From positions 78,798 through 142,797 of the forward strand of contig CAZIKY010000001.1 of NCBI GenBank assembly GCA_964540065.1: a DNA stretch of 64,000 nucleotides, written 5' to 3'. The notes below the pieces were generated by a model. That model saw nothing but the letters and a program-made list of their open reading frames with translations, made no database searches and was not told the DNA's origin. The stretch's first letter is position 1; every line of letters starts with the position of its first letter. The position numbers and the translations under genes are program-made. The stretch comes from Candidatus Woesearchaeota archaeon (GTDB lineage Archaea > Nanobdellota > Nanobdellia > Pacearchaeales > JAHJTO01). Below are positions 7,530-62,700 of the stretch, piece after piece.

Positions 7530-7553
7530 CCCAAAAATCACACTAATCCTATG

Positions 7554-7653
7554 CTCCCGTAGCTCAGCTTGGATAGAGCAATTGCCTTCTATTTCGAAGA
7601 AAATACCGAAGGAGCGAGCAATAGGTCGCAGGTTCAAATCCTGTCGGGAGCGT
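7554..7653 (+). tRNA. tRNA-Arg (anticodon TCT) with a 25-nt intron between positions 37 and 38
   Basis: Manual cloverleaf: acceptor GCTCCCG/CGGGAGC, D-stem GCTC/GAGC, anticodon stem ATTGC/GCAAT, loop CTTCTA|intron|A, T-arm GCAGG-TTCAAAT-CCTGT. Intron is tttcgaagaaaataccgaaggagcg. Mature length is 75 nt. Confidence 0.8.
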
Positions 7654-34529: not shown

Positions 34530-35156
34530 ATGATGAGATCCCTCGGAAGGTTATCTCTTGCAATTCTAACTGCTAGCTACGTTACTCTCTCTAATCCTTT
34601 AGAGATTTCAGCAGAAACTAAAGGTGCCGATAAGGGTAAAAAAGAGATCAAATACTTCAGGGGAAAATCAGATTATGATCCTGCAAAGGTAAAAGCTGAA
34701 AGGAAGAAACGGGCACAGGAAGATAAACAATATAGAGAAGTTGTCTTTGAAACATTCAAAGATTATGTCTCAACACTAATCGCCAAAGAATTCGGAGTAA
34801 TCCCTTATTTCTTTGCACCAAAATATTTTTCGAGATGGAAAGGGAAAATGGTTGACCTCAACCCAGAGGAGATAAAGGGCAACTTGAATAAAGCCCTAAG
34901 TGTCAAAGATTTCAGCAGAGTAAAACTCGAAGAATTGATTATTGGAGATGACCCGAATAATCAAGAGAGATTTAAGATAAGGAAACTGTCTGAATTCAGG
35001 AAAGAGTTTAGAGAAAGAGGGTACAAAGAGAAAATACTTTCAAATGACTATCTTGTAATCACAGACTTAAACAAGGAATTGCCTATTCAATCAAAAACTT
35101 TCTTCAGATGCGAAAAGGGTGATACCCGTTGTAAGATTATCGGTGTTTCTTATTAA
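34530..35156 (+). CDS. Secreted hypothetical protein
   Basis: 208 aa. N-terminal signal-like segment (LSLAILTASYVTLSNPLEISAE), then a highly charged K/E-rich body. Confidence 0.35.
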   Translation: MMRSLGRLSLAILTASYVTLSNPLEISAETKGADKGKKEIKYFRGKSDYDPAKVKAERKKRAQEDKQYREVVFETFKDYVSTLIAKEFGVIPYFFAPKYFSRWKGKMVDLNPEEIKGNLNKALSVKDFSRVKLEELIIGDDPNNQERFKIRKLSEFRKEFRERGYKEKILSNDYLVITDLNKELPIQSKTFFRCEKGDTRCKIIGVSY

Positions 35157-41857: not shown

Positions 41858-43720
41858 TTATCTAAGTGTAATTCCAACAGTTGAAACTGCAATATTATTG
41901 TAAACGTCCTGCAGTTCCAAAACAGTTCTAGGGGTTGGCTGCGCACCAATCTCCACACCAACGAAACTTGCTGCTTCCAAATCTTCATCTGTAAACATTA
42001 CATCAGCAGTGCCACCGCCGATAGTAAGCTGATTGAGCTCTTGGGCAGGCTGACTGATAGTATAACATTCTTCTCTGTCAAAGCCTAAAACTCCGAACAG
42101 TCCGCTTCTAGGAACACTCACACATTTCTCAACGCTTTGTGCTTCAAGGACGATCCTTCCTTCTTTGAAAAGGTAAGAAGTTACCTTATAGTTCCCCTCA
42201 ACAAGATTTATTCTATTCTGTTCTGGATATAAAATGCTTTCAGTAGCGTCTTCAGAACTGAATGTTACTAAAGCAGTCTCGCCCTCTTCCAGCCTTACGA
42301 GATCCTTAAGTACAACAACTTCAAGATTATGCTTTGGCTTCATTATAACAACTGCGCTTTCCACTTCATTCGTTGAAACTTGGACCCTTGCATCAGCATA
42401 GCCTTCTTTTTTAGCGATGATAAATCCGTTAACGCATTGAGGGAATTGTCCTTCAAGATTTCCTTCCTCTGCAAAGCCTACTCGACAGACGGTCCCTGCG
42501 CATTTAAAGCTTACATCTGCTTCAACAGAAAATCCTTGGAGATCAATCACATCTACATTAACCTCTTGGGTCTTGAATTGGCAAAGCTCCTGCACTTCTC
42601 CTTCCGGACTTTCGATTGGAACTTCTCCTCTTGGAAGATTATTTTCAACTGAGACAATCACGGGAAATTGGAAAAGACCGAAGTCTTCATCGAAAATTTG
42701 CACCATTACTGGATAAGTAACGGTATAGACGAAGTGATAAGGGACATAACAGAATCCCAGTATTCCGAGCCCCTCTTGGTTTCCTATTGGGTCTGCCCTT
42801 AAAAGATCATCAGTAGAAGGGACTATCTCTATTTTTGTGGGGAAATTTTGATCATAAATGAAATTCACTTGTTCTCCTTCTAAGCCAAGATCCAGGTCTC
42901 TTTCAAAATATTTTCTTTCATCACTTGAAAGATCATAGTAATTTCCGGCGACCCTTATTGTAGGGATGTTGTCTGCAAGTGCAGTCTTAAGATCGCTAAC
43001 AATTTGTTGCTTCTGCCATATCTTGGGGCTGCAGGTCAATTCAACTCCTGTCCCCGGGACATATAATGCGAGGATATCTGTGGTGTACTCTTCAAAAAAC
43101 TTAAGATTTTTATGCCGGTCATAAAGTGCTGTAGACAGATCATAAAGCCTTCCAAAATTGCTTCTTACAGAAGTAGAGTAAGAAGTGATCCTTCTCGAGG
43201 TCTGTTGGTAATCGATTGTAACAGGCCATTCAAGATCCACATAAACTCTGTCAGACCTCAGATCAACATTTATATTAGAAGGCTCTTCCAAAGTAAAGAC
43301 ATAGCCTTCTTGTTCAAGAGCGGAAAAGTCACAGTTAAGAAGATTTTGAGAGATATAATCCTCTAGTTGATTTTCCATCGAGCTTATAGAAGGGACTTGC
43401 TCTTTGTATATTCCATTTGCAGAGAGGTAAAACCAGAAAGGAATTGTTGATCCAAAAAATTCTAACTGGGAAGTTGAAGGAGCATATTCGCTTCCAGGTT
43501 CAAACTCTGGAAGTTCAATGTATCCGCCTTGTTCCCCCATAGTTTCAAGACCCTCGAGAGCCAAGTCAGAAACGCACCCTAAAATTTGATCATTAACTGG
43601 CGCAACATCTGCAGGCAGACCAAACGGCCTCAAACCTAAAGAGTATGCAAGAACAATTCCTGCGACAAGCAAAATCGCAATGATTACATATAGGGCAATC
43701 TGGCCTTTCTTATTCGACAT
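41858..43720 (-). CDS. Acidic secreted protein with an N-terminal class III (type IV pilin-like) signal/anchor
   Basis: The probable start is the internal ATG giving MSNKKGQIALYVIIAILLVAGIVLAYSLG (K-K-G then a hydrophobic helix). About 620 aa. The track ORF from 43837 overlaps tRNA-Val, so its N-terminal extension is discounted. Confidence 0.5.
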   Translation of the reverse strand: MSNKKGQIALYVIIAILLVAGIVLAYSLGLRPFGLPADVAPVNDQILGCVSDLALEGLETMGEQGGYIELPEFEPGSEYAPSTSQLEFFGSTIPFWFYLSANGIYKEQVPSISSMENQLEDYISQNLLNCDFSALEQEGYVFTLEEPSNINVDLRSDRVYVDLEWPVTIDYQQTSRRITSYSTSVRSNFGRLYDLSTALYDRHKNLKFFEEYTTDILALYVPGTGVELTCSPKIWQKQQIVSDLKTALADNIPTIRVAGNYYDLSSDERKYFERDLDLGLEGEQVNFIYDQNFPTKIEIVPSTDDLLRADPIGNQEGLGILGFCYVPYHFVYTVTYPVMVQIFDEDFGLFQFPVIVSVENNLPRGEVPIESPEGEVQELCQFKTQEVNVDVIDLQGFSVEADVSFKCAGTVCRVGFAEEGNLEGQFPQCVNGFIIAKKEGYADARVQVSTNEVESAVVIMKPKHNLEVVVLKDLVRLEEGETALVTFSSEDATESILYPEQNRINLVEGNYKVTSYLFKEGRIVLEAQSVEKCVSVPRSGLFGVLGFDREECYTISQPAQELNQLTIGGGTADVMFTDEDLEAASFVGVEIGAQPTPRTVLELQDVYNNIAVSTVGITLR

Positions 43721-43796
43721 TTTCCCTCTTTTAAGCTCATTTAAAGAGGAAAAAGTGATATATAAAGGTTGTTCAATAATCTCGAAGAAAAATAAA

Positions 43797-43868
43797 TGAC
43801 CCCAGGAGGAGTCGAACCTCCATTTGGTCCACGTCAAGGACCCGTCATAGCCGCTAGACCATGGGGTC
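43797..43868 (-). tRNA. tRNA-Val (anticodon GAC)
   Basis: Minus-strand cloverleaf: acceptor GACCCCA/TGGGGTC, anticodon stem GGTCC/GGACC with loop TTGACGT, T-arm GGAGG-TTCGACT-CCTCC. A TTTAAAAC box lies about 30 nt upstream at 43897..43904. Confidence 0.8.
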
Positions 43869-52597: not shown

Positions 52598-53752
52598 ATG
52601 TTCAATTTCTTCAAAGAAAAAATAAAGAAGGCTTTTGAGAAAATAAAGGGTACTGAAGAAGACTTAGAAGAAGAATCCAAGGAGGCTAAGAAAGAGATTA
52701 AGGAAGAAAAAAAGAAGGTTGAAAAGCTCAAGAAGGAAGAAAAAGGACTCAAAAAAGAGGAAAAGAAGAAGGAAAAAGAGGCTAAAGAAGCTGAAAAGAG
52801 CAAGAAAGAAGAGATAAAAGAGGACATTAAGGAGATCAAAGAAGAAGTAAAAAAGGTAGAGGAAAAAAAGGAGGAAAGGATTGGCATTCTCGGAAGGATC
52901 AAGGAAAGGCTTATTACATCGACCCTCACGCAGGAAGGATTTGAAGAGCTTTTCGAGCCATTAGAGCTAGCATTAATCGAAAACAACTTCTCGATAAAGA
53001 TCATAAGAAAGCTAAAAGAAAGGCTTGAGAAAGAGCTTGTTGAAAAGCCTTTCAAAAAAAGCGAAGTTGAATCAAAAATTAAAGAAGAGTTGAAAAATGT
53101 TATAAGGAATTCAATAATCGAGCCTTTCGACCTTATAGAAAAGATAAGGGAAAAGAAGGATAAGCCATTCACAATAGTTTTCTTCGGAATAAATGGTGCG
53201 GGAAAGACGACAACCATTGCTAAGATAGCTCATAGGCTTCATCAAAATAAAATGAAATGCGTTTTAGCGGCAGCAGACACATTTAGAGCAGCAAGCATTG
53301 AGCAGCTGGAAAAGCATGCCCAAAAACTCGATGTCAAGGTGGTCAAACATGATTATGGTGCAGACCCTGCAGCAGTTGCTTTTGATGCGATCGCCCATGC
53401 AAGATCAAAGAATATTGATGTTGTCTTGATAGACACTGCAGGAAGAATGCACACAAAAACTGATTTGATGAAAGAGATGGAAAAAATATGCAGAGTTGCA
53501 AAGCCGGATTTGAAAATCTTCGTTGGAGAAGCCATAACTGGCAGCGACTTATTGGAGCAGCTTAGCAAATTTAATGATTCTATAGGGATAGATGCCGCAA
53601 TCCTTACAAAGGCAGATGTAGATGAAAAAGGTGGAGCTTTAATCAGTGTAGGAGAAGTAACCGGAAAACCAATAATCTTCCTGGGGATGGGCCAGGAATA
53701 CGGAGATCTAAAAATCCTGGATAAAGAAAAAATCTTAGAAAGCTTATTCTGA
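52598..53752 (+). CDS. ftsY: Signal recognition particle receptor FtsY
   Basis: 384 aa. K/E-rich N-terminal A-region, then an NG domain with GINGAGKTTTIAKIA, DTAGR and TKAD. Confidence 0.9.
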   Translation: MFNFFKEKIKKAFEKIKGTEEDLEEESKEAKKEIKEEKKKVEKLKKEEKGLKKEEKKKEKEAKEAEKSKKEEIKEDIKEIKEEVKKVEEKKEERIGILGRIKERLITSTLTQEGFEELFEPLELALIENNFSIKIIRKLKERLEKELVEKPFKKSEVESKIKEELKNVIRNSIIEPFDLIEKIREKKDKPFTIVFFGINGAGKTTTIAKIAHRLHQNKMKCVLAAADTFRAASIEQLEKHAQKLDVKVVKHDYGADPAAVAFDAIAHARSKNIDVVLIDTAGRMHTKTDLMKEMEKICRVAKPDLKIFVGEAITGSDLLEQLSKFNDSIGIDAAILTKADVDEKGGALISVGEVTGKPIIFLGMGQEYGDLKILDKEKILESLF

Positions 53753-54056: not shown

Positions 54057-54215
54057 ATGGCTGAAAAACTCACATGCAGTATGTGCAATTTTAAATGGAC
54101 TTCTTCAACGGGAAAGGTTCCGGTAAGATGCCCTTACTGCGGAAGGGATGGAACAGTCATGGACTTGGAAGGGACACAGGCCAAATTCTTAGATGTAGAT
54201 GATCTTTTGAAGTAA
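54057..54215 (+). CDS. 52-aa zinc-ribbon protein, paralog B
   Basis: MAEKLTCSMCNFKWTSSTGKVPVRCPYCGRDGTVMDLEGTQAKFLDVDDLLK. Same 159-nt length as paralog A, with identical Cys spacing and tail. Confidence 0.45.
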   Translation: MAEKLTCSMCNFKWTSSTGKVPVRCPYCGRDGTVMDLEGTQAKFLDVDDLLK

Positions 54216-54287: not shown

Positions 54288-55676
54288 ATGGTACTTGAAA
54301 AACTCGGGAATGTATTGAAGAGCACGATGAAAAAGATAGCAGATGCTATCTTCGTAGACAAGGCCCTAGTCGAGGGGATCATCAAGGACCTAAAGTACTC
54401 CCTTCTTGAAGCAGATGTAAATCCTGCTTTGATCAGCGATCTTGCAGAAAAAATAAGAAAAACTGCCCTTGACGAAAAAACCAAGCTCGACAGGAAAGAA
54501 CAGCTTATCAAATTAATCCATGATGAAATGGTTAACCTTCTTGGAAAAGAGAAATACGACCTTCCAACAGGCGCCCAAAAGCCACTCAAAGTAATGTTCC
54601 TCGGGCTTTACGGTTCAGGAAAAACAACTACTATCGGAAAACTGGGAATGTATTACTCTAAGAGGGGCTTCAAAACCTGCCTTATAGGCCTTGATGTCCA
54701 TAGGCCAGCCGCTCCAGAGCAACTCGAACAGATTGCCCAAAAGGCAAAACTTCCCGTGTTCATAAACAAAACAGAAAAATCTGCAATTAAGATTTGGAAG
54801 GAGTTTGAAGATAAGATAAAGAAATATGATCTTGTCTTAATAGACACTGCTGGAAGAGATGTTCTAGACAAGGAACTTATAAAAGAGCTTGAGGATCTCA
54901 ACAAAACTATCAACCCTGCCCAAAAAATCCTCGTTATCCCTGCAGACATCGGCCAGACCGCAAAAAAGCAAGCCTCTGAATTCCAAAAATCTGTTGGAAT
55001 TAACGGAGTCATAATCACAAGAATGGACGGCACTGCAAAAGCAGGCGGTGCCTTAACGGCCTGTGCAGAAACTAATGCTCCAGTATTATTTGTGGGAACC
55101 GGTGAAAAGCCCCAGGACATAGAAACTTTCAATCCTACAGCTTTTGTCTCAAGGCTTTTAGGAATGGGAGATTTAGAAGCGCTTTTAGAGAAAGCGAATC
55201 AAGCAATCGAAAAAGAAAAAGCAGAGAAGCTGGAAAAAAGCTTGGCAGAGGGAAAATTCTCTCTCCTAGAATTCTATGATCAGATAAAGGGAATGCAAAG
55301 CATGGGGCCTCTTGGAAAGATAATGGAGCTTATTCCAGGACTAGGTGGGGCAAAGATGCCTGAAGGCCTTTTAGATGTTCAGGAGAAGAAGCTGAAAAAA
55401 TGGAAGGCTGCAATGGACAGTATGACTCAAACAGAAATAGAAGATCCAGATTCCATAGAAAGCAAAAGGATAACAAGAATCGCTAAGGGTTCGGGCACTT
55501 CTCCAGGAGAGATCAAAGAAATGTTAAGCCAATACAAAGTAGTCAAACAATTTGCAGCAAAAGGAAAGGGGATGGACCTTTCACAGATGCAAAATCCCCA
55601 AGATTTGATGAGAAATATGGGTGCAAAGCAGCTTAGAAAGCTGGCAAAGAAGTATAAAGGCCAGCTACCGATTTAA
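54288..55676 (+). CDS. srp54: Signal recognition particle protein SRP54
   Basis: 462 aa. N domain, G domain (GLYGSGKTTTIGKLG, DTAGR, TRMD) and a Met-rich M domain (GMQSMGPLGKIMELIPGLGG). Confidence 0.9.
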   Translation: MVLEKLGNVLKSTMKKIADAIFVDKALVEGIIKDLKYSLLEADVNPALISDLAEKIRKTALDEKTKLDRKEQLIKLIHDEMVNLLGKEKYDLPTGAQKPLKVMFLGLYGSGKTTTIGKLGMYYSKRGFKTCLIGLDVHRPAAPEQLEQIAQKAKLPVFINKTEKSAIKIWKEFEDKIKKYDLVLIDTAGRDVLDKELIKELEDLNKTINPAQKILVIPADIGQTAKKQASEFQKSVGINGVIITRMDGTAKAGGALTACAETNAPVLFVGTGEKPQDIETFNPTAFVSRLLGMGDLEALLEKANQAIEKEKAEKLEKSLAEGKFSLLEFYDQIKGMQSMGPLGKIMELIPGLGGAKMPEGLLDVQEKKLKKWKAAMDSMTQTEIEDPDSIESKRITRIAKGSGTSPGEIKEMLSQYKVVKQFAAKGKGMDLSQMQNPQDLMRNMGAKQLRKLAKKYKGQLPI

Positions 55677-56812
55677 TTGGGAATAACACTCATTAATTCT
55701 CCAACATTCTTTATGTCATAATCTGACTTAACCTTATGGTCTTCCTCTTTGCGGTTTCCAGTTCTTACCCTAATTGTTTTTAACCCTATATTTTGGCCTG
55801 CGATAATATCTGATTCAAGGTCTCCAACCATATAGCTGCCTGTAGTGTCAATATTATGTTCTTGAATCATTTTTTCTATGAGCCTAGTTGCAGGTTTTTT
55901 ATCTGGGCAAAGATTATTCTTATCTCTTTCATGCTCACAATAACCATAGCCTGCAAATTCGACCCCTTTTTCAGAATATTTCCTTAAAACAGATTTGAAA
56001 ACATCTTCTACCTCTTGTATTGACATCCTGCCCTTAGCAACCCATGGTTGAGATGAAACTATAAAAAGCTTATAGCCCATATTCTGGGCTTGAGCTAAAG
56101 CATTATAACTGAATGAGTAAATATCCCCTTTAGGAATAACTTCTGGAGCACCCTCATCGCTCACAAGAGTGGCATCCTTATCAAAAAAGATTGCTTTGTT
56201 CATAGGCATCCCAAGAAGATTTTTGACATGAGACTGCATCACTAGATTTATTGCTTCTGGCCTGCCGTTAGTATTCACATACTTTACATTGGAGAATCTT
56301 TCTCCAAGCTCGAGGTAAAGATCTCTCTGCCTTGTAAGCATTTCAAGATTTTCTCCAGGGCTAATCGGTTCGCCAGTTTCCTCATGGCGTTTCCTTATCC
56401 TTTCCATTGCAATTTCTGGATCACAGATTAAAACTAAAGATAATTCTGGTTTCCGATAATGAGTGTGTCTCGAAACAAGATATTCTAAATCAAATCCTTC
56501 TATCTGCTGTATAACTAAAGAAGACAAATATCCCCGATTATTGAGTATCAAATTTCCTTCTTCCTTAAGCAAAGGCCTCATGTCTTGCTCAGAAAGCTTC
56601 CAACGCCCCTTCATAAAAAGCTCGAAGCATCGACGTTTATCAAAATCCGGCTGTCTCCGCAAGGCCTTTATTTCTTCCCTAAAATAATGCGGCTCCCGAA
56701 ATTGATGGACCTTATAACTGGTATTTGAAGTTAGAAAATTAGAGAGATCTTCAACACGTTTATCTTTTCCGCTCCCACTGATCCCTTCGACTAGAATGAA
56801 TTGGGATTTCAT
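55673..56812 (-). CDS. Bifunctional thymidylate kinase (N-terminal) / HAD-IIIA phosphatase (C-terminal, GmhB/HisB-N-like) fusion
   Basis: Tmk-like motifs: P-loop EGISGSGKD, FREP (TREP-like), NNRGYLSS ... QQ (DRY ... YQ-like), LID RIRKRHEE. HAD motifs: FFDKDATLV (DxDxT), GYCEHERDKNNLCPDKKP (GmhB CxH ... CxxKP Zn site), GDLESD. The start is taken at the ATG encoding MKSQFILVEG. The track ORF extends to 56851. Confidence 0.6.
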   Translation of the reverse strand: MKSQFILVEGISGSGKDKRVEDLSNFLTSNTSYKVHQFREPHYFREEIKALRRQPDFDKRRCFELFMKGRWKLSEQDMRPLLKEEGNLILNNRGYLSSLVIQQIEGFDLEYLVSRHTHYRKPELSLVLICDPEIAMERIRKRHEETGEPISPGENLEMLTRQRDLYLELGERFSNVKYVNTNGRPEAINLVMQSHVKNLLGMPMNKAIFFDKDATLVSDEGAPEVIPKGDIYSFSYNALAQAQNMGYKLFIVSSQPWVAKGRMSIQEVEDVFKSVLRKYSEKGVEFAGYGYCEHERDKNNLCPDKKPATRLIEKMIQEHNIDTTGSYMVGDLESDIIAGQNIGLKTIRVRTGNRKEEDHKVKSDYDIKNVGELMSVIPN

Positions 56813-56814
56813 CT

Positions 56815-57468
56815 TTACTTGCCTGTTCCCGTTCCTCTTGGAGCACCGCATCCAAGAATCCCGAAATCCCGGTATAAATCATAAGAATCTTTTCTTCGAT
56901 AATCCTTTTTTTCTTCATTAGTTTTTGGAATTTCCTGGACGATCTTTACGTCTTTCCACTCATTTGCTAGGGCATAAAAAGGGCATTCTGGCGGGATGCC
57001 CTGCACATGCAACACATTTACTGAATTTTCTAAGTATCGTGCAAGGGAAATTCTATGCAACCCATCAACAACAATATTCATCTTAACTTCTATGGGGTGA
57101 TCATATTTTATGTCTCCACGAGTATCATGATAGATCATTTTCTCCTCGCTAACTTCAACAATAGGGGGAATTAGCATATGCACTTCTCCATTTATGTCTA
57201 ACTCATATCCTCCCGTGAGTTTAAGGGGATCTATGCCATGTTCTCCTAGAAGATGAAGCCTCATGTCTCTCAAAGATTCTAATCTATCTTGCAAAAGGTA
57301 TTTGCTTCCGGGATTCAATTCTGTCCAAAACATCTCTCTTAAAACAATTCGAGCTTTTTGATAAGGAAATACTTTTGGGGAGTTGGGATCTTTAGATTTA
57401 AGAGGGACTGACCTGACTTCACTTATGAGTTTTTCGAGAGGAATGTGTTTTCGGACTAAGACTTTCAT
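56815..57468 (-). CDS. Hypothetical protein in the thymidylate cluster
   Basis: 217-aa ORF with no recognised motif. Translationally coupled on both sides (stop 2 nt before the downstream Tmk-HAD gene start at 56812; its own start overlaps the upstream ThyX-like gene by 4 nt). Confidence 0.35.
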   Translation of the reverse strand: MKVLVRKHIPLEKLISEVRSVPLKSKDPNSPKVFPYQKARIVLREMFWTELNPGSKYLLQDRLESLRDMRLHLLGEHGIDPLKLTGGYELDINGEVHMLIPPIVEVSEEKMIYHDTRGDIKYDHPIEVKMNIVVDGLHRISLARYLENSVNVLHVQGIPPECPFYALANEWKDVKIVQEIPKTNEEKKDYRRKDSYDLYRDFGILGCGAPRGTGTGK

Positions 57469-59315
57469 TTTAAAATTGTGCTACTTCGTTTTGAATTGTA
57501 CCAGGCCTTGGCATCTTTAAGATTGATTAAATGTGCGGGATAGTCTTCATGATGTGTTCTGAACAATCTTCCAAACTCGGGCATCCTTTGAGTATCTTCC
57601 CTTGCAATATCTAAGGCGACTCTTTTGTATGAGCTTATTGCTCCATCTCTGGATCTCAGCTCGGATACAAAAAGATCCTGGCCGAACTGCCAGCTGTAAA
57701 GTCTTCTAAATCTGAATGCAAATGGAACCATTAGCTGAGCCACATTTGGATCACAGCCATCATCGACAATTCTTCTATAAGTTTTATCGACTTTTTGCAT
57801 CAAAAATTGGAATTCGTCTTGAAGCCCCATTTCAAAGAATAAATCAGGAGTCTCAGCACCATGATATGTAGATAACAATTGTTTTGATTTTGTTCCCCTT
57901 CTGTGCCTCTGAAGATCTCTGTCGCCGCCATAGTCTATCAAAGTTTCCCTCATCAGACCGCCATGAAGCAGCTCTAAAGGATCTGCATCGAATCTGCCCC
58001 TAAGCCTTAAAACCGTATCGACAACATGGGTTATATCAGTCGGGTTCTTTGCAAAGTGGTTGTAAAGCTGTTTTATAGAGCAATGAGAATAGGGGAAAAC
58101 TAAAGAAGCGGCCAATTGTGCGTCATTGTATGAAGGAATAACATGGTCAACAAAATTTGTTCTCGAAGTTATTTCATAGGATTTGGTTCTTTCATCTTCA
58201 ACCCTAGACATCACAAAGTCAGTTAGTTCTTGCCTCAAACCAATAAGAAAATCGTTTCTGCCCGCATGAGTATTCTTTCCAAGAAGTGTTGGGAGAACTT
58301 TTCTTCCTTCAACCAACAAATTTTCTCCAAGATTTCTTGCAGTTATCAATGGTGAAGACAAAAGAGTCGTTAGATCCTCCTCCAGGGTCCTGGCATCACT
58401 CGCTACAGCCATCGAAGTCGTTATTGCCGGGAAAAGAAGATACCTCGTGAAATCAAATACTGTTTTTCTCGCATATTTAGGATAACCCTCTTCTCTTTCT
58501 TTGTAAATCTTGGCTTTTTTTTCCTCAAGATCTTTATCGCTGAAAACTCTTTCAGGATCCTTTCTTAATTCTTTCTTTTTCCATTCTACAACCCCTTCTT
58601 CAATACTTTCAGGAGTAAGCCAAAATTCTCTGAACGCCTGATTAGTAGGGTGCTTCTCAATATAATCTGTGCAGCGATCAGTGAAGTTTACATAAGCATC
58701 GCTCAAGAGCCTTATGGTTTCAAGAATTTGATCTGCATGCTTAGATCCTTTTATATCCGGATTGTCTTCAGCCCTCTTAAGAACCTTCGTACGATCGATA
58801 TACCTAGTAGACACAACTTGGGGCCTATCTTTTGGATTTTGAGTCACATTTTTGCCATCCAAGTCTGTAATGTTTTCTGCATGATAAAGCACATTCGCAC
58901 CGTCTTTTATAGAGCCATCACCATAACTCCTTATGGCCTCATCCCTTTCTTCCGAAGTATAGGATATTCCAAGAGACCAATCAGTATGGAATCTTGCACT
59001 TTCACTCTTTAAGGCTGCCCCGATAGATGGCCCTTCTTTTACTCTTCCATTTTCTTTTATCCTTTGCACGAGATCTCGAGCCATAGCAGGGTTTTTATCT
59101 AATGATTCCAAAAATTTTGCTTGATAAGGTTTGTCGCTTCTGCTAAATTTTGCGGCAAGAGTTGCTTGCTCCTCGGGACCGAATTCTTCTGAAGGGATAA
59201 CAAAAGAGATATCTGCGAAAGGTGATGTAAACGATCTAGAAAGTATGATTCTTTCCTCTTCTTCACTAAGGTTTTTTGTAAATCTCCCCATTTTAGCCCT
59301 CTTTTTATTCCACAA
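57465..59315 (-). CDS. Long ThyX-like protein (putative flavin-dependent thymidylate synthase, extended/duplicated form)
   Basis: 616 aa. Contains QRHRRGTKSKQLLSTY resembling the ThyX RHR-x7-S ... RY signature with a 2-aa insertion. Context next to Tmk and RNR supports the call. Otherwise unassigned. Confidence 0.35.
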   Translation of the reverse strand: MWNKKRAKMGRFTKNLSEEEERIILSRSFTSPFADISFVIPSEEFGPEEQATLAAKFSRSDKPYQAKFLESLDKNPAMARDLVQRIKENGRVKEGPSIGAALKSESARFHTDWSLGISYTSEERDEAIRSYGDGSIKDGANVLYHAENITDLDGKNVTQNPKDRPQVVSTRYIDRTKVLKRAEDNPDIKGSKHADQILETIRLLSDAYVNFTDRCTDYIEKHPTNQAFREFWLTPESIEEGVVEWKKKELRKDPERVFSDKDLEEKKAKIYKEREEGYPKYARKTVFDFTRYLLFPAITTSMAVASDARTLEEDLTTLLSSPLITARNLGENLLVEGRKVLPTLLGKNTHAGRNDFLIGLRQELTDFVMSRVEDERTKSYEITSRTNFVDHVIPSYNDAQLAASLVFPYSHCSIKQLYNHFAKNPTDITHVVDTVLRLRGRFDADPLELLHGGLMRETLIDYGGDRDLQRHRRGTKSKQLLSTYHGAETPDLFFEMGLQDEFQFLMQKVDKTYRRIVDDGCDPNVAQLMVPFAFRFRRLYSWQFGQDLFVSELRSRDGAISSYKRVALDIAREDTQRMPEFGRLFRTHHEDYPAHLINLKDAKAWYNSKRSSTILK

Positions 59316-59388: not shown

Positions 59389-62300
59389 TTGAGTAATCTT
59401 TATAAGAAGCGGCCCATTACCAATATAAAGATGGTGATTAGAAGGGTCCGTAAGAGGACCGGAGAAACTGTAGCATTTAATTCTTGGAAGATTACGGCCG
59501 CAATAGAGAAAGCTATGAAGGCTGTCGGTGAGCACGACAGAAAAGAAGCAAGAGTTTTAACAGATGGAGTTGTCAAATCGCTTGGAGAAAGGGAAAAATC
59601 CTTCTTCAAAGGCATTCCGGGAATAGAGGACATCCAGAATATTGTTGAGCAGGCATTAATGCGATCAAAATTCCAAAGAACGGCCAAAGCTTACCTGCTT
59701 TACAGAAAATCCAGGGCGCATGCCCGAGAGTTAAGAGAGTATTTCAAAATTAAAGATGATCTCAAACTGGATGTCAATGCAATCAAAGTCCTTCAGGAGA
59801 GGTATCTCCTAAAAAATGAGAAAGGTGAGATAATCGAAACTCCAACAGAACTCTTCAAAAGGGTTGCAAGAGCAGTCGCCCATGTTGATAAGTATTATGG
59901 AGAGAACATAGATCATGTAAAAGAGATTGAAAAAGAATTTTTTAATGCAATGAAAAACCTCGAATTCATGCCCAATACCCCCACACTTTTCAACGCAGAA
60001 ACAGAATTGGGCCAGTTGTCTGCCTGCTTCACCGAAGAGCAACCAATCATGACTTCACAAGGGATAAAACCCATCAAAGAGATAAAAGTTGGAGATTTAG
60101 TATTAACTGCTTCAGGCAAATTTTCGATAGTTAATAAAACAATGCAAAGAATGGCCAAAAGCAGATATAAGATTAATGTGTTAAAACTACCAAGTTCAAC
60201 TTTATCCGTTACTGGAGATCACCCCATTCTGGCCCTAAAAGGGAATAAACCCTCATGGGTGATGGTTAAGGATCTAAAAGAGGGAGATTTTGTAGCAATA
60301 TCCTATCCGAGAGAAACACAGGATTTAGAAGAAATAGAGCTAATAGACTTCCTATCAGATAAAAGATTCTTTGTAAAAGAGAATCTTATCTACAGAAAAA
60401 ATACTGATTCTAGATTAAGATCTGGAGAAGTAAGCAAACAAGTCAAACCAGTTAAGAACAGAATAGTTGTGGACGAAGAGCTATTGAGACTTTTAGGCTA
60501 TTTTGCAAGTGAAGGAGATATTGACGGTAAAGATTGTATCCGGTTTACTTTCTCAAACAAGGAAACAGTATATGCCCAGGATGTTATCGAGATCTTAAAA
60601 GAAAAGTTCAATATATCTTCCAAAATAGAAAGCTCAAATTTTGGAAACTGGATAAATGTTAGAGCTAATTCTTTAATTCTCTGTGAATTATTTGAAAAAA
60701 TAATCGGGAAAGGATTTAACAAAAAAGTCGTACCATCATGGATTTTAAAATTGCCAAAAGAAAAGCAAAAAGGATTTATTATCGGCGCGTTCAGAGGAGA
60801 TTCAACTTTATTTTTGAACAAACATGTGCACAATGCAAGGTTAGTTATGTCTAATGTTAATTTAGTATATGCTGTTTGGGTAATGTTGATGAGGAGAGGC
60901 GTGGTACCTAGCTTTAGAAAGGAAAAGGTACCCGCTCTTGGGAGAACAAACCCTTATTCTTGTTTAATAAAGTCTGCTGAAAGTAAAAGGTTGATGGAAG
61001 AGATTTATTTAAAAAGAGTGGATAGCCCGACACAAGCCAGCATGCAAAGAATATCAGAGAAACTGATCGGCGATACAGTATTTTTGCCTATAAAAAGCAT
61101 AGAATATGTAGAAGAAGAGGCATTAGTTTATAACTTTGAGGTGGAGGGAGAACACACTTACGTAGCGAATTGTGTTGCAGTACATAACTGCTTTGTCCTC
61201 CCCATAGATGATAGTCTTGAAAGCATTTTTACGACACTTAAGCATACTGCCACTATACAGCAAAGCGGCGGCGGTACGGGTTTTTCATTTTCCCAGCTGA
61301 GGCCAAAAGGAGACATGGTAAAAAGCACTAAAGGTACCGCATCCGGGCCAGTTTCATTCATAAAGATTTATGATCAAACAACAGAGGTAATCAAACAGGG
61401 GGGAAAGAGACGCGGGGCGAACATGGCAATACTCCATGTAAGCCATCCAGACATCCTTGAATTTGTAACTGCAAAAAAAGGTTCAAAACATCTTAGCAAC
61501 TTCAATATTTCAGTTGCGGCCGATGACAAATTTATGAAAGCTGTGATCAAAGGAAAAAAATATCCTCTGATAAATCCAAGAATGGGAGAGATCGTTAATA
61601 AGATTGATGCTAAAGAGCTGTTTAATTTTATTGCACAAAATGCCTGGGAAACAGGAGACCCGGGCATGATATTCATAGATGAGATAAATAAATATAATCC
61701 TGTTCTAAAAACTGTTGGGAAAATAGAAGCCACAAATCCTTGCGGAGAGGTCCCGCTTCTCCCATATGAATCTTGCAATCTCGGTTCGATTAACCTTTCA
61801 AAAGTTTATGATGAAAAAAGTAAAGATATAGATTGGGGTAAGTTATGCCATCTGGTTAGATTGGGGATTCATTTCTTAGACAATGTAATTGATGCTAATA
61901 GGTATCCTATTCCGGAGCTTGAAAAAGCCGCAAAAGAGAACAGAAGAATTGGCCTGGGAGTGATGGGGTTTGCAGATCTTCTGATAAAAATAGGGATTCC
62001 TTACAATTCTCCTGAAACAATCAAACTTGCAGAGAAAATAGCGAAATTTATTTCTGATGAAGCAGATAAGAGAAGTATAGAGCTTGCAAATGAAAGGGGA
62101 TCTTTCCCAAACTTTAAGGGCTCAGCTCTTGAAAAAAAATTTAAGGCAATCAGAAACGTTGCAAGAACAACAATTGCTCCTACAGGAACTATCTCAATAA
62201 TCTCGGGTTGCTCGTCTGGAATTGAGCCCCTATTTGCAGTAGCCTTTATGAGGGAAGTTCTTGGAGGCAAACACTTGTTTGAAGTAAATAAAGAGTTCCA

Positions 62301-62700
62301 AAGCATATTGCTAAAAGAAGGGCTTTATGATGACAAGTTATTAGATAAAATCGCAAAACAGGGAAACCTTAAGGGAATAAAGCTTCCTAAAGAGATTAAA
62401 GATCTTTTTGTGACTGCCTTAGAGATTTCTCCAGAGCACCATATAAAAATCCAGGCAGCATTTCAAAAATACACAGATAATGCAGTGAGCAAGACGATTA
62501 ACCTTCCAAACTCTGCAAAGCCTAAAGACATTGCGGCAGCTTACCTTTTGGCCTACAAGCTAAAATGCAAGGGAATAACTGTCTACAGATATGGGAGCAA
62601 GCCTTCCCAAGTCCTTTATCTTGGAGAAGGAAAGAAGTATACCAAAGCGAATATAGACTTTAGCGGTGGGACTTGCATCGGAAAAGTCTGCACTTTCTAA
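59389..62700 (+). CDS. nrdJ: Class II (adenosylcobalamin) ribonucleotide reductase with N-terminal ATP-cone, interrupted by an intein
   Basis: ATP-cone (VIRRVRKRTGETVAFNSWKI). Catalytic-site motif split as ...TELGQLSA | intein | CFVLPIDDSLESIF. Downstream NPCGEVPL and C-terminal Cys cluster. The extein is about 715 aa. Confidence 0.85.
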   Translation: MSNLYKKRPITNIKMVIRRVRKRTGETVAFNSWKITAAIEKAMKAVGEHDRKEARVLTDGVVKSLGEREKSFFKGIPGIEDIQNIVEQALMRSKFQRTAKAYLLYRKSRAHARELREYFKIKDDLKLDVNAIKVLQERYLLKNEKGEIIETPTELFKRVARAVAHVDKYYGENIDHVKEIEKEFFNAMKNLEFMPNTPTLFNAETELGQLSACFTEEQPIMTSQGIKPIKEIKVGDLVLTASGKFSIVNKTMQRMAKSRYKINVLKLPSSTLSVTGDHPILALKGNKPSWVMVKDLKEGDFVAISYPRETQDLEEIELIDFLSDKRFFVKENLIYRKNTDSRLRSGEVSKQVKPVKNRIVVDEELLRLLGYFASEGDIDGKDCIRFTFSNKETVYAQDVIEILKEKFNISSKIESSNFGNWINVRANSLILCELFEKIIGKGFNKKVVPSWILKLPKEKQKGFIIGAFRGDSTLFLNKHVHNARLVMSNVNLVYAVWVMLMRRGVVPSFRKEKVPALGRTNPYSCLIKSAESKRLMEEIYLKRVDSPTQASMQRISEKLIGDTVFLPIKSIEYVEEEALVYNFEVEGEHTYVANCVAVHNCFVLPIDDSLESIFTTLKHTATIQQSGGGTGFSFSQLRPKGDMVKSTKGTASGPVSFIKIYDQTTEVIKQGGKRRGANMAILHVSHPDILEFVTAKKGSKHLSNFNISVAADDKFMKAVIKGKKYPLINPRMGEIVNKIDAKELFNFIAQNAWETGDPGMIFIDEINKYNPVLKTVGKIEATNPCGEVPLLPYESCNLGSINLSKVYDEKSKDIDWGKLCHLVRLGIHFLDNVIDANRYPIPELEKAAKENRRIGLGVMGFADLLIKIGIPYNSPETIKLAEKIAKFISDEADKRSIELANERGSFPNFKGSALEKKFKAIRNVARTTIAPTGTISIISGCSSGIEPLFAVAFMREVLGGKHLFEVNKEFQSILLKEGLYDDKLLDKIAKQGNLKGIKLPKEIKDLFVTALEISPEHHIKIQAAFQKYTDNAVSKTINLPNSAKPKDIAAAYLLAYKLKCKGITVYRYGSKPSQVLYLGEGKKYTKANIDFSGGTCIGKVCTF
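60025..61188 (+). mobile_element. Intein (388 aa) with LAGLIDADG homing-endonuclease domain inside the RNR gene
   Basis: Starts with Cys (CFTEEQPIMT), ends VAVHN followed by extein +1 Cys. Two LAGLIDADG-like blocks (LLGYFASEGDIDG, GFIIGAFRGDSTLF). Inserted exactly at the conserved active-site Cys. Confidence 0.75.

What the first reader, a model, noticed from the sequence alone, without database searches (positions are those of the whole stretch)
55673..56851. Thymidylate kinase fused to a GmhB/HisB-N-type HAD phosphatase
The N-terminal half carries the Tmk P-loop, the TREP-like FREP and DRY-like motifs, and a basic LID. The C-terminal half carries DxDxT (FFDKDATLV), the GmhB-type Cys/His zinc knuckle (CEH ... 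CPDKKP) and the GDxxxD motif. A kinase that makes dTDP fused to a phosphatase is reminiscent of polynucleotide kinase-phosphatase architecture (in the reverse domain order). It could act as a dTMP/dTDP futile-cycle regulator, a nucleotidase, or a nucleic-acid end-healing enzyme.
Basis: seen in the sequence. Interest (0 to 1): 0.55.

Follow-up and report, generated by a model that had tools for sequence, protein, structure and literature searches.

The report
Thymidylate kinase-phosphatase fusion in dTMP operon
A tiny symbiotic archaeon encodes one protein that joins a thymidylate-kinase-type enzyme to a phosphatase; it is the last gene of a conserved four-function operon for making the DNA letter T, whose second gene, a ParB-like enzyme, has no known role and recurs next to thymidylate-synthase-like genes in bacteria and giant phages too.

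Summary
Window 55673-56851(-) is one uninterrupted ORF (likely start ATG 56812, 379 aa). It has an N-terminal thymidylate-kinase-family domain and a C-terminal HAD-IIIA (GmhB/HisB-N-like) phosphatase whose four catalytic motifs are invariant.

The fusion is conserved at 38-58% identity, but only in DPANN archaea. It is always the last gene of a cassette: tandem-ThyX, ParB-CE, Tmk, HAD. In five lineages Tmk and HAD are separate adjacent genes, and that HAD is a different class (HAD-IA). In one protein the HAD is fused to ParB-CE instead. In the window the cassette sits head-to-head with ribonucleotide reductase.

ParB-CE in bacteria and in some huge-phage contigs sits beside dCMP deaminase, another HAD and a methanogen-type thymidylate-synthase-like protein.

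The context is therefore deoxypyrimidine nucleotide metabolism, not nucleic-acid end healing, and the PNKP models fall below threshold.

The kinase half keeps the thymine-binding and LID residues. It has lost the Walker-A Ser/Thr and the P-loop acidic residue, and it scores below the dTMP-kinase equivalog cut-off.

The phosphatase's substrate is inferred, not shown. The most likely candidates are a pyrimidine deoxynucleotide processed together with ParB-CE to supply dCMP/dUMP, or a YjjG-like nucleotidase activity.

Verdict: new variant of known enzymes, set in an apparently undescribed module. Moderate interest.

The parts
55673..56812 (-). Tmk-HAD fusion gene with its most likely start (ATG 56812-56810; 379 aa plus stop). 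The longest ORF reaches 56851 (392 aa).
   Evidence: All 13 homologues start at the MKSQFIL position. That ATG lies 2 nt after the ParB-CE stop codon. Residues 2-10 of the long form have pLDDT below 50.
56213..56803 (-). Thymidylate-kinase-family domain (residues 17-213 in long-ORF numbering).
   Evidence: Pfam PF02223 E 7.8e-17. TIGR00041 scores 69 bits, below the 83.25 cut-off. PDB sequence hits are A. aeolicus Tmk 5xbh/2pbr at about 1e-11. Foldseek TM to Tmk structures is 0.81-0.87.
56762..56788 (-). P-loop GISGSGKDK (residues 22-30). It is atypical: Ser replaces the Asp/Glu of Tmk, and Asp replaces the Walker-A Ser/Thr.
55688..56200 (-). HAD-IIIA (GmhB/HisB-N-like) phosphatase domain (residues 218-388).
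   Evidence: TIGR01662 78.2 bits and TIGR01656 84.5 bits. PDB sequence hits are HisB-N 2fpr at 1.3e-12 and GmhB 3l8e at 2.8e-12. Foldseek gives GmhB 2gmw with TM 0.82.
56168..56182 (-). HAD motif I, D224-K-D226-A-T228 (nucleophile and general acid/base).
   Evidence: Invariant in 14 of 14 family members.
55901..55939 (-). GmhB-type metal-binding loop C305-x-H307...C315-x-D317, followed by the motif III lysines K318-K319.
   Evidence: C305, H307, C315, K318 and K319 are invariant. D317 is 90% or more conserved and is Cys in P0013. The loop has low pLDDT at residues 309-318.
55808..55825 (-). HAD motif IV, G343-D344-x-x-x-D348.
   Evidence: Invariant.
56815..57468 (-). ParB-CE ('ParB-like catalytic effector', PF24392) gene, 217 aa, of the ParB/Srx fold with invariant PPIVE and DGxHR motifs. 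It is the cassette's function-unknown member.
   Evidence: Pfam E 5.1e-18. Family alignments. Name. AF2 model with weak ParB/Srx Foldseek hits.
57465..59291 (-). Tandem (pseudo-dimeric) ThyX-like flavin-dependent thymidylate synthase, 608 aa counted from ATG 59291. The longest ORF starts at TTG 59315.
   Evidence: Pfam Thy1 matches the C-half only, E 1.7e-6. A profile search against Mtb ThyX 3gwc shows the N-half keeps S-x-R-Y (S161, R163, Y164; profile-alignment numbering, offset +8 in the longest ORF) and the C-half keeps R462-H463-R464. The 608-aa form matches P0024.
59389..62700 (+). Ribonucleotide reductase large subunit with an ATP-cone and an intein/LAGLIDADG insertion. It is transcribed divergently from the cassette across an AT-rich gap of about 100 bp.
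   Evidence: Pfam Ribonuc_red_lgC E 4.4e-140, ATP-cone, Intein_splicing and LAGLIDADG_3. Intergenic sequence.

Best explanation
The gene encodes a bifunctional enzyme of deoxypyrimidine (thymidylate) metabolism. It is the translationally coupled last gene of a conserved DPANN cassette: tandem-ThyX, then ParB-CE, then Tmk, then HAD. In this genome the cassette is divergent from ribonucleotide reductase.

Shown:
- The two domains are real.
- The fusion and the gene order are conserved.
- The kinase and the phosphatase are functionally linked. They occur as neighbouring genes with a different HAD class in five lineages, and the HAD is fused to ParB-CE in another protein.
- The ParB-CE partner is linked across bacteria, archaea and huge-phage contigs to dCMP deaminase, to HAD phosphatases and to two unrelated thymidylate-synthase-like folds.

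Inferred:
1. The kinase half phosphorylates the dTMP made by the adjacent ThyX to dTDP. It keeps the thymine-stacking Phe, the O4-binding Arg, REP, R106, Q115 and the LID arginines. Its P-loop resembles the adenylate-kinase type, with no Ser/Thr after Lys.
2. The HAD half hydrolyses a small pyrimidine deoxynucleotide, not a nucleic-acid end.
3. My preferred specific reading (about 0.3): ParB-CE, an NTP-hydrolysing/phosphotransfer fold, and the HAD together convert RNR-derived dC/dU tri- or diphosphates to dCMP/dUMP. This feeds dCMP deaminase and ThyX, the role T4 gp56 dCTPase-dUTPase plays in the T4 dNTP-synthesis complex. The cassette would then run from RNR product to dTDP.
For: - Single ORF and both domains.
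- The fusion is conserved in 14 full-length DPANN proteins, with all HAD catalytic motifs invariant.
- Cassette order ThyX-like > ParB-CE > Tmk(+HAD), with overlapping or abutting stop/start codons, in the window and across 16 distinct DPANN loci. ThyX-like lies upstream in 14 of them, Tmk downstream in 15, HAD-IIIA is fused in 10 and a separate HAD-IA follows in 5. Flanking genes differ.
- The split-cassette HADs give full-length, sub-threshold matches to pyrimidine 5'-nucleotidase TIGR01993 and to YjjG.
- A ParB-CE-HAD fusion exists (P0062).
- The ThyX-like protein retains complementary dUMP (SxRY) and flavin (RHR) motifs.
- RNR is head-to-head with the cassette in the window. dCMP deaminase lies beside the cassette in L025 and L014.
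- In bacterial ParB-CE loci, dCMP deaminase is present in 41 of 50, HAD in 21 of 50 and a methanogen-type TS-like protein with a pterin-binding domain in 15 of 51. The same four-gene module is on a 287-kb IMG/VR contig.
- ParB-CE's only structural relatives are NTP-binding ParB/Srx proteins.
- Bacterial-module HADs have motif I D-I-G-x-T, lacking the Asp+2 general acid. By established HAD enzymology this fits a good leaving group such as a phosphoanhydride.
Against: - No activity has been measured for any component.
- The kinase half scores below the dTMP-kinase equivalog cut-off (69 against 83.25). It lacks the Walker-A Ser/Thr, the P-loop Asp/Glu and, in the window protein, the Asp of DR[YFH].
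- One split-cassette genome also has a canonical Tmk 4.7 kb away that passes the cut-off (85.3). The cassette kinase may therefore not be the housekeeping dTMP kinase.
- HAD enzymes normally cleave phosphomonoesters, and the DPANN HADs keep the full DxDxT. An NDP-to-NMP role is therefore atypical.
- The three HAD types may not be isofunctional.
- ParB-CE's chemistry is unknown. It could equally be a kinase, like SerK/SbnI.
- HAD and the TS-like gene are absent from many bacterial ParB-CE loci.
Confidence: 0.6

Rival explanations
1. Pool-control or house-cleaning nucleotidase. The HAD half is a YjjG/cdN-like pyrimidine 5'-(deoxy)nucleotidase that dephosphorylates dTMP/dUMP or non-canonical analogues. 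Together with the kinase half it sets up a substrate cycle that tunes or sanitises the dTMP/dUMP pool.
For: The stand-alone HADs occupying the same cassette position give full-length best matches to pyrimidine 5'-nucleotidase TIGR01993 and to YjjG. The bacterial-module HAD best matches YjjG and a pyrimidine 5'-nucleotidase model. The DPANN HADs keep the canonical DxDxT of phosphomonoesterases. From established knowledge, kinase/5'-nucleotidase substrate cycles regulate dNTP pools in mammalian cells.
Against: All nucleotidase matches are far below the family cut-offs (36-50 bits against 143-160). The fused HAD is GmhB/HisB-N-like, and its nucleotidase matches cover only the generic C-terminal motifs. 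This reading does not explain why the HAD is tied or fused to ParB-CE, nor why the bacterial HADs lack the Asp+2 general acid.
Confidence: 0.25
2. Non-canonical pyrimidine pathway. The divergent TS-like enzymes (tandem ThyX; methanogen-type TS with a pterin-binding domain) make a modified dNMP such as 5-hydroxymethyl-dUMP. The cassette-specific Tmk paralogue phosphorylates it. The HAD and/or ParB-CE remove the competing canonical nucleotide. This is the logic of hmU/hmC phages: hydroxymethylase, dedicated dNMP kinase, and dTMPase/dCTPase.
For: The cassette kinases form a clade distinct from a co-resident canonical Tmk and score below the equivalog cut-off. The P-loop residue that contacts the sugar 3'-OH has changed. 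In L007-9 the TS-like/ParB-CE pair sits beside a canonical ThyA-DHFR pair, so there it is a second TS homologue. The module occurs on putative huge-phage contigs. The Pfam name 'catalytic effector' hints at conflict systems.
Against: The ThyX-like protein keeps the SxRY, RHR and LR(S) motifs expected of a real FDTS, and from my own knowledge no ThyX-family hydroxymethylase is known. The cassette sits among housekeeping genes and next to RNR. It is absent from the curated phage and plasmid collections. PADLOC has no hits. No glycosyl-, amino-acyl- or other transferases typical of hypermodification clusters are conserved nearby.
Confidence: 0.12
3. Degenerate kinase. The Tmk half no longer transfers phosphate. 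It serves as a dTMP/dUMP-binding specificity or allosteric module (a surrogate 'cap') for the capless HAD-IIIA phosphatase.
For: In the window's subclade the Walker-A position after Lys is Asp/Gly/Glu, the +2 Thr is lost, and the DR[YFH] Asp is Asn/Glu/Val. Split-cassette Tmks keep GKS[T/S/Q]. There is no flexible linker between the domains, and the high pTM of 0.87 suggests a rigid two-domain unit. From established knowledge, C0-type HAD enzymes often borrow specificity elements from other domains.
Against: K29, R106, the LID arginines R151 and R155, and the whole nucleotide-binding architecture are invariant. From established knowledge, adenylate and UMP/CMP kinases work with GKG(T) P-loops. 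Deeper-branching fused members retain GK[DG]TQ or GKST.
Confidence: 0.12
4. Nucleic-acid end-healing enzyme of the PNKP type, with a 5'-kinase and a 3'-phosphatase.
For: The architecture is a P-loop kinase plus a DxDxT HAD-IIIA phosphatase. There is a weak Pfam PNK3P match (E 4e-4) and a weak DNA-3'-Pase match (E 1.5e-3).
Against: Both PNKP-type matches are below their cut-offs and much weaker than the GmhB/HisB matches. The kinase half is unambiguously Tmk-family by sequence and structure, with thymine-binding residues. No ligase or repair genes are conserved nearby, and every conserved neighbour is a nucleotide-metabolism gene.
Confidence: 0.03

Closest known systems
Thymidylate kinase (Tmk; PF02223; e.g. 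A. aeolicus 2pbr, E. coli 4tmk, T. thermophilus 5xt8)
   Same: Same fold (Foldseek TM 0.81-0.87). It shares the REP motif, the Phe/Arg thymine-binding pair, the Arg of DR[YFH], the YQ motif and an arginine-rich LID.
   Different: Ser replaces the P-loop Asp/Glu. There is no Ser/Thr after the P-loop Lys. The DR[YFH] Asp is Asn. The LID carries an 8-residue insertion. It scores below the TIGR00041 equivalog cut-off. It is fused to a phosphatase.
GmhB (D,D-heptose 1,7-bisphosphate phosphatase) and HisB-N (histidinol-phosphate phosphatase), both HAD-IIIA
   Same: All four HAD motifs, a capless core with a Cys/His metal loop, and the best sequence and structure matches (2fpr, 3l8e, 2gmw).
   Different: It is far below the GmhB and HisB-N equivalog cut-offs (82 against 178; 64.5 against 140). 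Motif II is SSQPW instead of TNQSG. The fourth Zn ligand is Asp. No heptose or histidine pathway genes are nearby.
T4 polynucleotide kinase-phosphatase (Pnkp) / mammalian PNKP
   Same: A P-loop kinase joined to a DxDxT HAD-type phosphatase in one chain. From my own knowledge, T4 Pnkp has the same N-kinase/C-phosphatase order.
   Different: The kinase here is Tmk-type with a thymine pocket. The PNKP phosphatase models are below threshold. The context is nucleotide metabolism, not repair.
Phage T4 dNTP-synthesis enzymes (gp56 dCTPase-dUTPase, Cd dCMP deaminase, Td thymidylate synthase, gp1 dNMP kinase, NrdAB)
   Same: The same pathway logic as the gene set found here: RNR, a putative (d)NTP/NDP-to-NMP step, dCMP deaminase, TS, NMP kinase. 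This comparison rests on established knowledge of T4.
   Different: The proteins are non-homologous for the NTP/NDP-hydrolysis step (ParB/Srx fold plus HAD here). The assignment of that step is my inference only.
YjjG / TIGR01993 pyrimidine 5'-nucleotidases and mammalian cdN/mdN
   Same: They are HAD phosphatases acting on pyrimidine (deoxy)nucleoside monophosphates. The stand-alone HADs of the split and bacterial modules resemble them most.
   Different: All matches are sub-threshold. The fused HAD belongs to a different HAD class (IIIA, capless).

Membership tests
Thymidylate kinase (Tmk) | Matches the family HMM and fold | tested here: met
   PF02223 scores 62 bits against a cut-off of 27. 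Foldseek TM to Tmk structures is 0.81-0.87.
Thymidylate kinase (Tmk) | Passes the dTMP-kinase equivalog model TIGR00041 | tested here: not met
   69.0 bits against a cut-off of 83.25. The split-cassette Tmk scores 67.9, while a co-resident canonical Tmk in L010 scores 85.3.
Thymidylate kinase (Tmk) | Walker-A GxxGxGK[S/T] with an acidic residue (Asp/Glu) in the loop | tested here: not met
   The sequence is GISGSGKD. Ser25 replaces Asp/Glu and Asp30 replaces Ser/Thr. The position after Lys is D/G/E/S across the family.
Thymidylate kinase (Tmk) | Thymine-binding Phe (stacking) and Arg (O4), REP motif, YQ motif, LID arginines | tested here: met
   F79 is mostly conserved. R83, E53, P54, Q115, R151 and R155 are invariant.
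Thymidylate kinase (Tmk) | DR[Y/F/H] motif | tested here: inconclusive
   R106 is invariant, but the Asp position is N/E/D/V/G and the aromatic is shifted by one residue.
Thymidylate kinase (Tmk) | ATP:dTMP phosphotransferase activity | not testable with these tools
   Needs an enzyme assay.
HAD-IIIA phosphatase | HAD motifs I-IV (DxDxT, S/T, K, GDxxxD) and the subfamily HMM | tested here: met
   D224, D226, T228, S266/S267, K318/K319, G343, D344 and D348 are invariant. TIGR01662 scores 78.2 against 44.6 and TIGR01656 scores 84.5 against 84.15.
GmhB (heptose-1,7-bisphosphate phosphatase) | Passes the equivalog/subfamily models | tested here: not met
   NF006506 scores 82 against 178. TIGR00213 scores 80.8 against 149.6.
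GmhB / HisB-N | CxH...CxC zinc-binding loop | tested here: inconclusive
   C305, H307 and C315 are invariant. The fourth ligand is Asp317, which is Cys only in P0013. Metal binding was not tested.
HisB-N (histidinol-phosphatase) | Passes the equivalog domain model TIGR01261 | tested here: not met
   64.5 bits against 140.
Polynucleotide kinase-phosphatase (PNKP) | PNK3P / DNA 3'-phosphatase domain model | tested here: not met
   PF08645 scores 20.6 against 22. TIGR01664 scores 18.5 against 107.65.
Polynucleotide kinase-phosphatase (PNKP) | PNK-type polynucleotide kinase domain and a repair/ligase gene context | tested here: not met
   The kinase half is Tmk-type. The conserved neighbours are ThyX-like, ParB-CE and RNR.
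Pyrimidine 5'-nucleotidase (TIGR01993 / YjjG TIGR02254) | Passes the family model | tested here: not met
   The fused HAD gives only C-terminal partial matches of 20.7-24.4 bits. The split-cassette HADs give full-length matches of 36-46 bits against 142.9.
Anti-phage defence systems (PADLOC) | A match to a known defence protein model | tested here: not met
   The only hit for the fusion is PDC-M51B at E 0.0017. ParB-CE and the ThyX-like protein give nothing.

The most novel reading that the evidence does not exclude
The trio of a TS-like enzyme, ParB-CE and a HAD is an undescribed, cross-domain module that performs a step of deoxypyrimidine metabolism not assigned to any known enzyme. Tmk is added in DPANN and dCMP deaminase in bacteria and huge phages. 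One version: a ParB/Srx-fold enzyme acts on free dCTP/dUTP, or on deoxynucleosides, to feed dCMP deaminase and thymidylate synthase, with the HAD as its obligate partner. The more radical version: the module makes a non-canonical pyrimidine nucleotide for DNA. The Tmk-HAD fusion would be the Rosetta-stone link that exposes the module.
Probability: 0.35. Interest if true: 0.75.

Novelty: new variant of a known kind. Interest (0 to 1): 0.55.

Why it matters
DPANN archaea have minimal genomes and depend on hosts for many precursors, so how they make dTTP is a real gap in knowledge.

This fusion ties a phosphatase covalently to the thymidylate kinase step. Through its conserved operon it also points to a roughly 200-aa ParB/Srx-fold protein family. 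That family has about 680 clusters at 50% identity and no assigned function. It co-occurs with two unrelated thymidylate-synthase folds, with dCMP deaminase and with HAD phosphatases, in archaea, bacteria and huge-phage contigs.

If ParB-CE and the HAD supply dCMP/dUMP, or make an unusual nucleotide, that would add a new enzyme class to a pathway considered textbook-complete. It would also give testable targets: four small soluble proteins.

If the phosphatase turns out to be only a generic nucleotidase, the finding is a lineage-specific domain fusion of modest interest.

Tried and rejected
1. PNKP/end-healing reading. Rejected on sub-threshold models, a Tmk-type kinase and the gene context.
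2. Heptose (GmhB) or histidine (HisB) pathway role. Rejected: the equivalog scores are far below the cut-offs and no pathway genes are conserved nearby.
3. Anti-phage defence system. PADLOC gave nothing for the fusion, ParB-CE or the ThyX-like protein.
4. Mobile or viral origin of the fusion. No phage or plasmid record covers 80% or more of the fusion. ParB-CE is absent from the phage and plasmid collections. The viral-contig scans with the fusion profile and the DPANN ParB-CE profile found no cassette. The bacterial-type module does occur on three IMG/VR contigs.
5. Literature searches for 'ParB-CE', 'DUF4346', ParB-like + dCMP deaminase + thymidylate synthase, DPANN + ThyX + thymidylate kinase, and long or fused ThyX in Chlamydia found no description of the module or the fusion.
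6. PDB sequence searches for ParB-CE and the ThyX-like protein as single sequences found nothing useful. Only a profile recovered ThyX.
7. The first attempt at the exhaustive search failed because locus-derived sequences are not accepted. Two attempts at a metagenome scan failed because the alignments were too divergent.
8. I could not test for a second Tmk, Dut, Dcd or ThyA in the source genome.

Full report
OBSERVATION

Window 55673-56851 on the minus strand is one uninterrupted 392-aa ORF.

Pfam places Thymidylate_kin at residues 21-199 (E 7.8e-17). The HAD models (Hydrolase_like, HAD_2, Hydrolase) cover 250-385. NCBIfam places an HAD-IIIA / histidinol-phosphatase-type domain at 219-364: TIGR01662 scores 78.2 bits against a cut-off of 44.6, and TIGR01656 scores 84.5 against 84.15. 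GmhB and HisB-N are the next best hits but fall far below their equivalog cut-offs. dTMP kinase TIGR00041 scores 69 bits, below its cut-off of 83.25.

By sequence, the closest solved structures are HisB-N (2fpr, 1.3e-12), GmhB (3l8e, 2.8e-12) and Aquifex Tmk (5xbh/2pbr, about 1e-11).

An AlphaFold2 model built on the family alignment is confident (pLDDT 88.8, pTM 0.87). Foldseek matches its N-half to Tmk structures (TM 0.81-0.87) and its C-half to GmhB (TM about 0.82). None of the best 50 hits listed spans both halves.

All homologues begin at the residue equivalent to M14. That ATG (56812-56810) lies two bases after the stop codon of the upstream gene. The real product is therefore probably 379 aa.

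MOTIFS

In an alignment of 14 fusion proteins every HAD catalytic residue is invariant:
- D224, D226 and T228 (motif I)
- S266-S267 (motif II)
- K318-K319 (motif III)
- G343, D344 and D348 (motif IV)
- the metal-loop residues C305, H307 and C315. The fourth position is Asp317, which is Cys in one member.

The kinase half keeps these residues: the P-loop glycines and K29, E53-P54 (the REP motif), the thymine-stacking Phe79 and the O4-binding Arg83, R106, Q115, and the LID arginines R151 and R155.

Three canonical Tmk features are not conserved:
- The P-loop acidic residue is Ser.
- The Walker-A Ser/Thr is Asp, and is D/G/E/S across the family.
- The Asp of DR[Y/F/H] is Asn, and is N/E/D/V/G across the family.

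The cassette kinases, fused or not, share the Ser-containing P-loop and a long LID insertion. They form a group distinct from a canonical Tmk found in one of the same genomes.

DISTRIBUTION AND CONTEXT

The word-indexed search of 5.8 billion proteins found only 15 relatives. Fourteen carry both domains and one lacks the kinase half. The named ones are from Woesearchaeota/Nanoarchaeia.

In every locus examined the fusion is the last gene of the cassette long ThyX-like, ParB-CE (PF24392), Tmk-HAD. Start and stop codons overlap or abut, and the flanking genes are unrelated.

A genome-collection scan with the ParB-CE profile gave 13 more DPANN loci. I annotated all loci with HMMs built from my own alignments. 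There are 16 distinct DPANN loci:
- ThyX-like lies upstream in 14.
- Tmk lies downstream in 15.
- The HAD-IIIA is fused in 10.
- In the other 5, a stand-alone Tmk with a canonical GKS[T/S/Q] P-loop is followed, with overlap, by a stand-alone HAD of about 217 aa from a different class (HAD-IA, 'GFDLDKTLY').

Those stand-alone HADs give their best full-length matches to TIGR02253 and to pyrimidine 5'-nucleotidase TIGR01993, and in two of the four also to YjjG. All are sub-threshold.

One representative of the ParB-CE family (P0062, 439 aa) is a ParB-CE-HAD-IA fusion.

The phosphatase is thus an obligatory fourth function of the cassette. It has been recruited from at least two HAD classes and fused to either neighbour. 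This is strong comparative evidence for a functional link. It argues against an accidental fusion or an assembly artefact.

THE PARTNERS

ThyX-like protein. It is 608 aa counted from ATG 59291. It matches Pfam Thy1 only in its C-half. A family profile aligns both halves to M. tuberculosis ThyX. The N-half has lost RHR but keeps the dUMP-phosphate motif S-x-R-Y (S161, R163 and Y164, invariant). The C-half keeps RHR (R462-H463-R464) and the downstream LR(S) motif. This complementary retention is what a tandem, pseudo-dimeric and still functional flavin-dependent thymidylate synthase would show.

ParB-CE. The name means 'ParB-like catalytic effector domain'. An exhaustive profile search found 678 clusters at 50% identity. 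Almost all are single-domain proteins of 190-230 aa. The motifs PPIVE, DGxHR and a conserved Trp are invariant. Its AF2 model (pLDDT 79) gives only weak hits. All of them are to NTP-binding ParB/Srx proteins: pNOB8 ParB-N, sulfiredoxin, ParB-CDP, Noc, PadC and the serine kinase SbnI. I found no paper that describes it.

BEYOND DPANN

A more distant ParB-CE sits after a 562-aa protein that is a methanogen-type thymidylate-synthase relative (TIGR03283) fused to an MtrA/DHPS-like pterin-binding domain. Canonical ThyA, DHFR and a dCMP deaminase lie alongside.

I retrieved 80 metagenomic loci with a bacterial ParB-CE profile. The recurrent same-strand neighbours are:
- a ComEB-like dCMP deaminase, in 41 of the 50 loci with enough upstream sequence
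- a HAD that best matches YjjG, in 21 of those 50
- the TS-like/pterin-binding protein, in 15 of the 51 loci with enough downstream sequence

No Tmk occurs in these loci.

The complete module HAD > ParB-CE > deaminase > TS-like is also present on a 287-kb IMG/VR contig.

The 20 bacterial-module HADs with an intact N-terminus all have motif I D-I-G-x-T, so they lack the Asp+2 general acid.

In the window itself the cassette is transcribed divergently from an intein-containing, ATP-cone ribonucleotide reductase. In two other DPANN loci a dCMP deaminase homologue lies beside the cassette.

INTERPRETATION

Every conserved associate is an enzyme of deoxypyrimidine nucleotide metabolism. The PNKP-like end-healing idea is therefore not supported:
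- The PNKP phosphatase models are below threshold.
- The kinase is Tmk-type with a thymine pocket.
- No repair genes are linked.

The best-supported explanation is a bifunctional enzyme of the thymidylate branch. The kinase half most likely takes ThyX-made dTMP to dTDP. This is an inference from the retained thymine, phosphate and LID residues. From established knowledge, adenylate- and UMP/CMP-kinase-type P-loops also lack the Ser/Thr after Lys, so its loss does not by itself imply inactivity.

The phosphatase half acts on a small pyrimidine deoxynucleotide. My preferred specific model (about 0.3) is as follows. ParB-CE has a fold whose known chemistry is NTP gamma-phosphate hydrolysis or transfer. 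It and the HAD together convert RNR-derived dC/dU tri- or diphosphates to dCMP/dUMP for the deaminase and ThyX. This is the role of gp56 dCTPase-dUTPase in the T4 dNTP-synthesis complex, which I cite from established knowledge. The model gives every component of both the archaeal and the bacterial modules a place in one linear route. It also fits the missing general acid in the bacterial HADs.

Several points weaken it. HADs rarely cleave phosphoanhydrides. The DPANN HADs keep DxDxT. ParB-CE might instead be a kinase.

Rivals:
- A YjjG/cdN-like nucleotidase forming a pool-regulating substrate cycle (0.25).
- A non-canonical-pyrimidine pathway, analogous to those of hmU/hmC phages (0.12). Points in its favour are the distinct kinase clade, a co-resident canonical Tmk in L010 that passes the equivalog cut-off (85.3), and a co-resident canonical ThyA in L007-9.
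- A degenerate kinase half that acts as a specificity module (0.12).
- PNKP-type end healing (0.03).

NOVELTY AND VERDICT

Both domains are known enzyme types. The fusion is a lineage-restricted new variant. It was not found in the phage or plasmid collections or described in the literature searched.

Its main value is as a Rosetta stone for a wider module that appears to be undescribed: a TS-like enzyme, ParB-CE and a HAD, with Tmk or dCMP deaminase added. The central enzyme of that module has no known function.

Interest is moderate (0.55). It would be higher if ParB-CE and the HAD prove to carry out a new step in dUMP/dTMP supply or to make an unusual nucleotide.

Noticed in passing
window 59389-62700 (+): The ribonucleotide reductase large subunit (ATP-cone, lgN and lgC domains) is interrupted by an intein with a LAGLIDADG homing-endonuclease domain (about residues 210-600). 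It is divergent from the ThyX-like gene across an AT-rich gap of about 100 bp containing TATA-like runs.
   Followed up: partly
window 56815-57468 (-), plus L007-L009, L026-L105 and L107-L109: The ParB-CE (PF24392) family has about 680 clusters at 50% identity and no assigned function. It is genomically tied to dCMP deaminase, to HAD phosphatases and to two unrelated thymidylate-synthase-like folds, in archaea, bacteria and putative huge phages.
   Followed up: yes
L026-L105 (e.g. L084 220-909, L109 5312-5995): The bacterial-module HADs all carry motif I D-I-G-x-T, lacking the Asp+2 general acid/base of phosphomonoesterase HADs. This suggests an unusual substrate, possibly a phosphoanhydride, or a different chemistry.
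   Followed up: partly
L056 6615-8066; L007 4326-6014; L108 4964-6448; L109 7218-8720: Proteins of about 480-560 aa that combine an unknown N-terminal region of about 200 aa, a methanogen-type thymidylate-synthase-like core (TIGR03283, sub-threshold) and a C-terminal PterinBD-DUF4346/MtrA-like domain. In L007-9 the protein co-resides with canonical ThyA-DHFR.
   Followed up: partly
L026-L050 and others (e.g. L080 603-1676): A sub-architecture, patatin-like protein (357 aa) > dCMP deaminase > ParB-CE, occurs in 20 loci without an adjacent HAD or TS-like gene. Its meaning is unknown, and the loci may all come from one lineage.
   Followed up: no
L010 11967-12614 (= L019 13961-14611): A second, canonical Tmk that passes the TIGR00041 cut-off lies 4.7 kb downstream of the split cassette, next to a NUDIX gene. 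A CTP synthase lies two genes upstream of the ThyX-like gene in the same locus.
   Followed up: partly
L013 7992-8663: The only DPANN locus where ParB-CE stands alone, with no ThyX-like gene or Tmk adjacent. A 617-aa ORF on the opposite strand abuts it.
   Followed up: no
window 55673-55676: The convergent SRP54 (54288-55676, +) and Tmk-HAD (55673-56851, -) genes overlap by 4 bp at their stop codons. FtsY (52598-53752, +) and a 52-aa zinc-ribbon-like ORF (54057-54215, +) lie just upstream of SRP54.
   Followed up: no
window 7553-7652 (+): Rfam finds a 100-nt tRNA that ARAGORN did not report. It probably contains an intron, which is consistent with an archaeal genome.
   Followed up: no
window 35153-41839 (-): A giant 2228-aa ORF followed by a 659-aa ORF (41858-43837, -). 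Neither was examined.
   Followed up: no
L107 6001-7014: On a 545-kb IMG/VR contig, ParB-CE carries a C-terminal extension of about 120 aa (337 aa in total) and has none of the usual partners within 6 kb.
   Followed up: no
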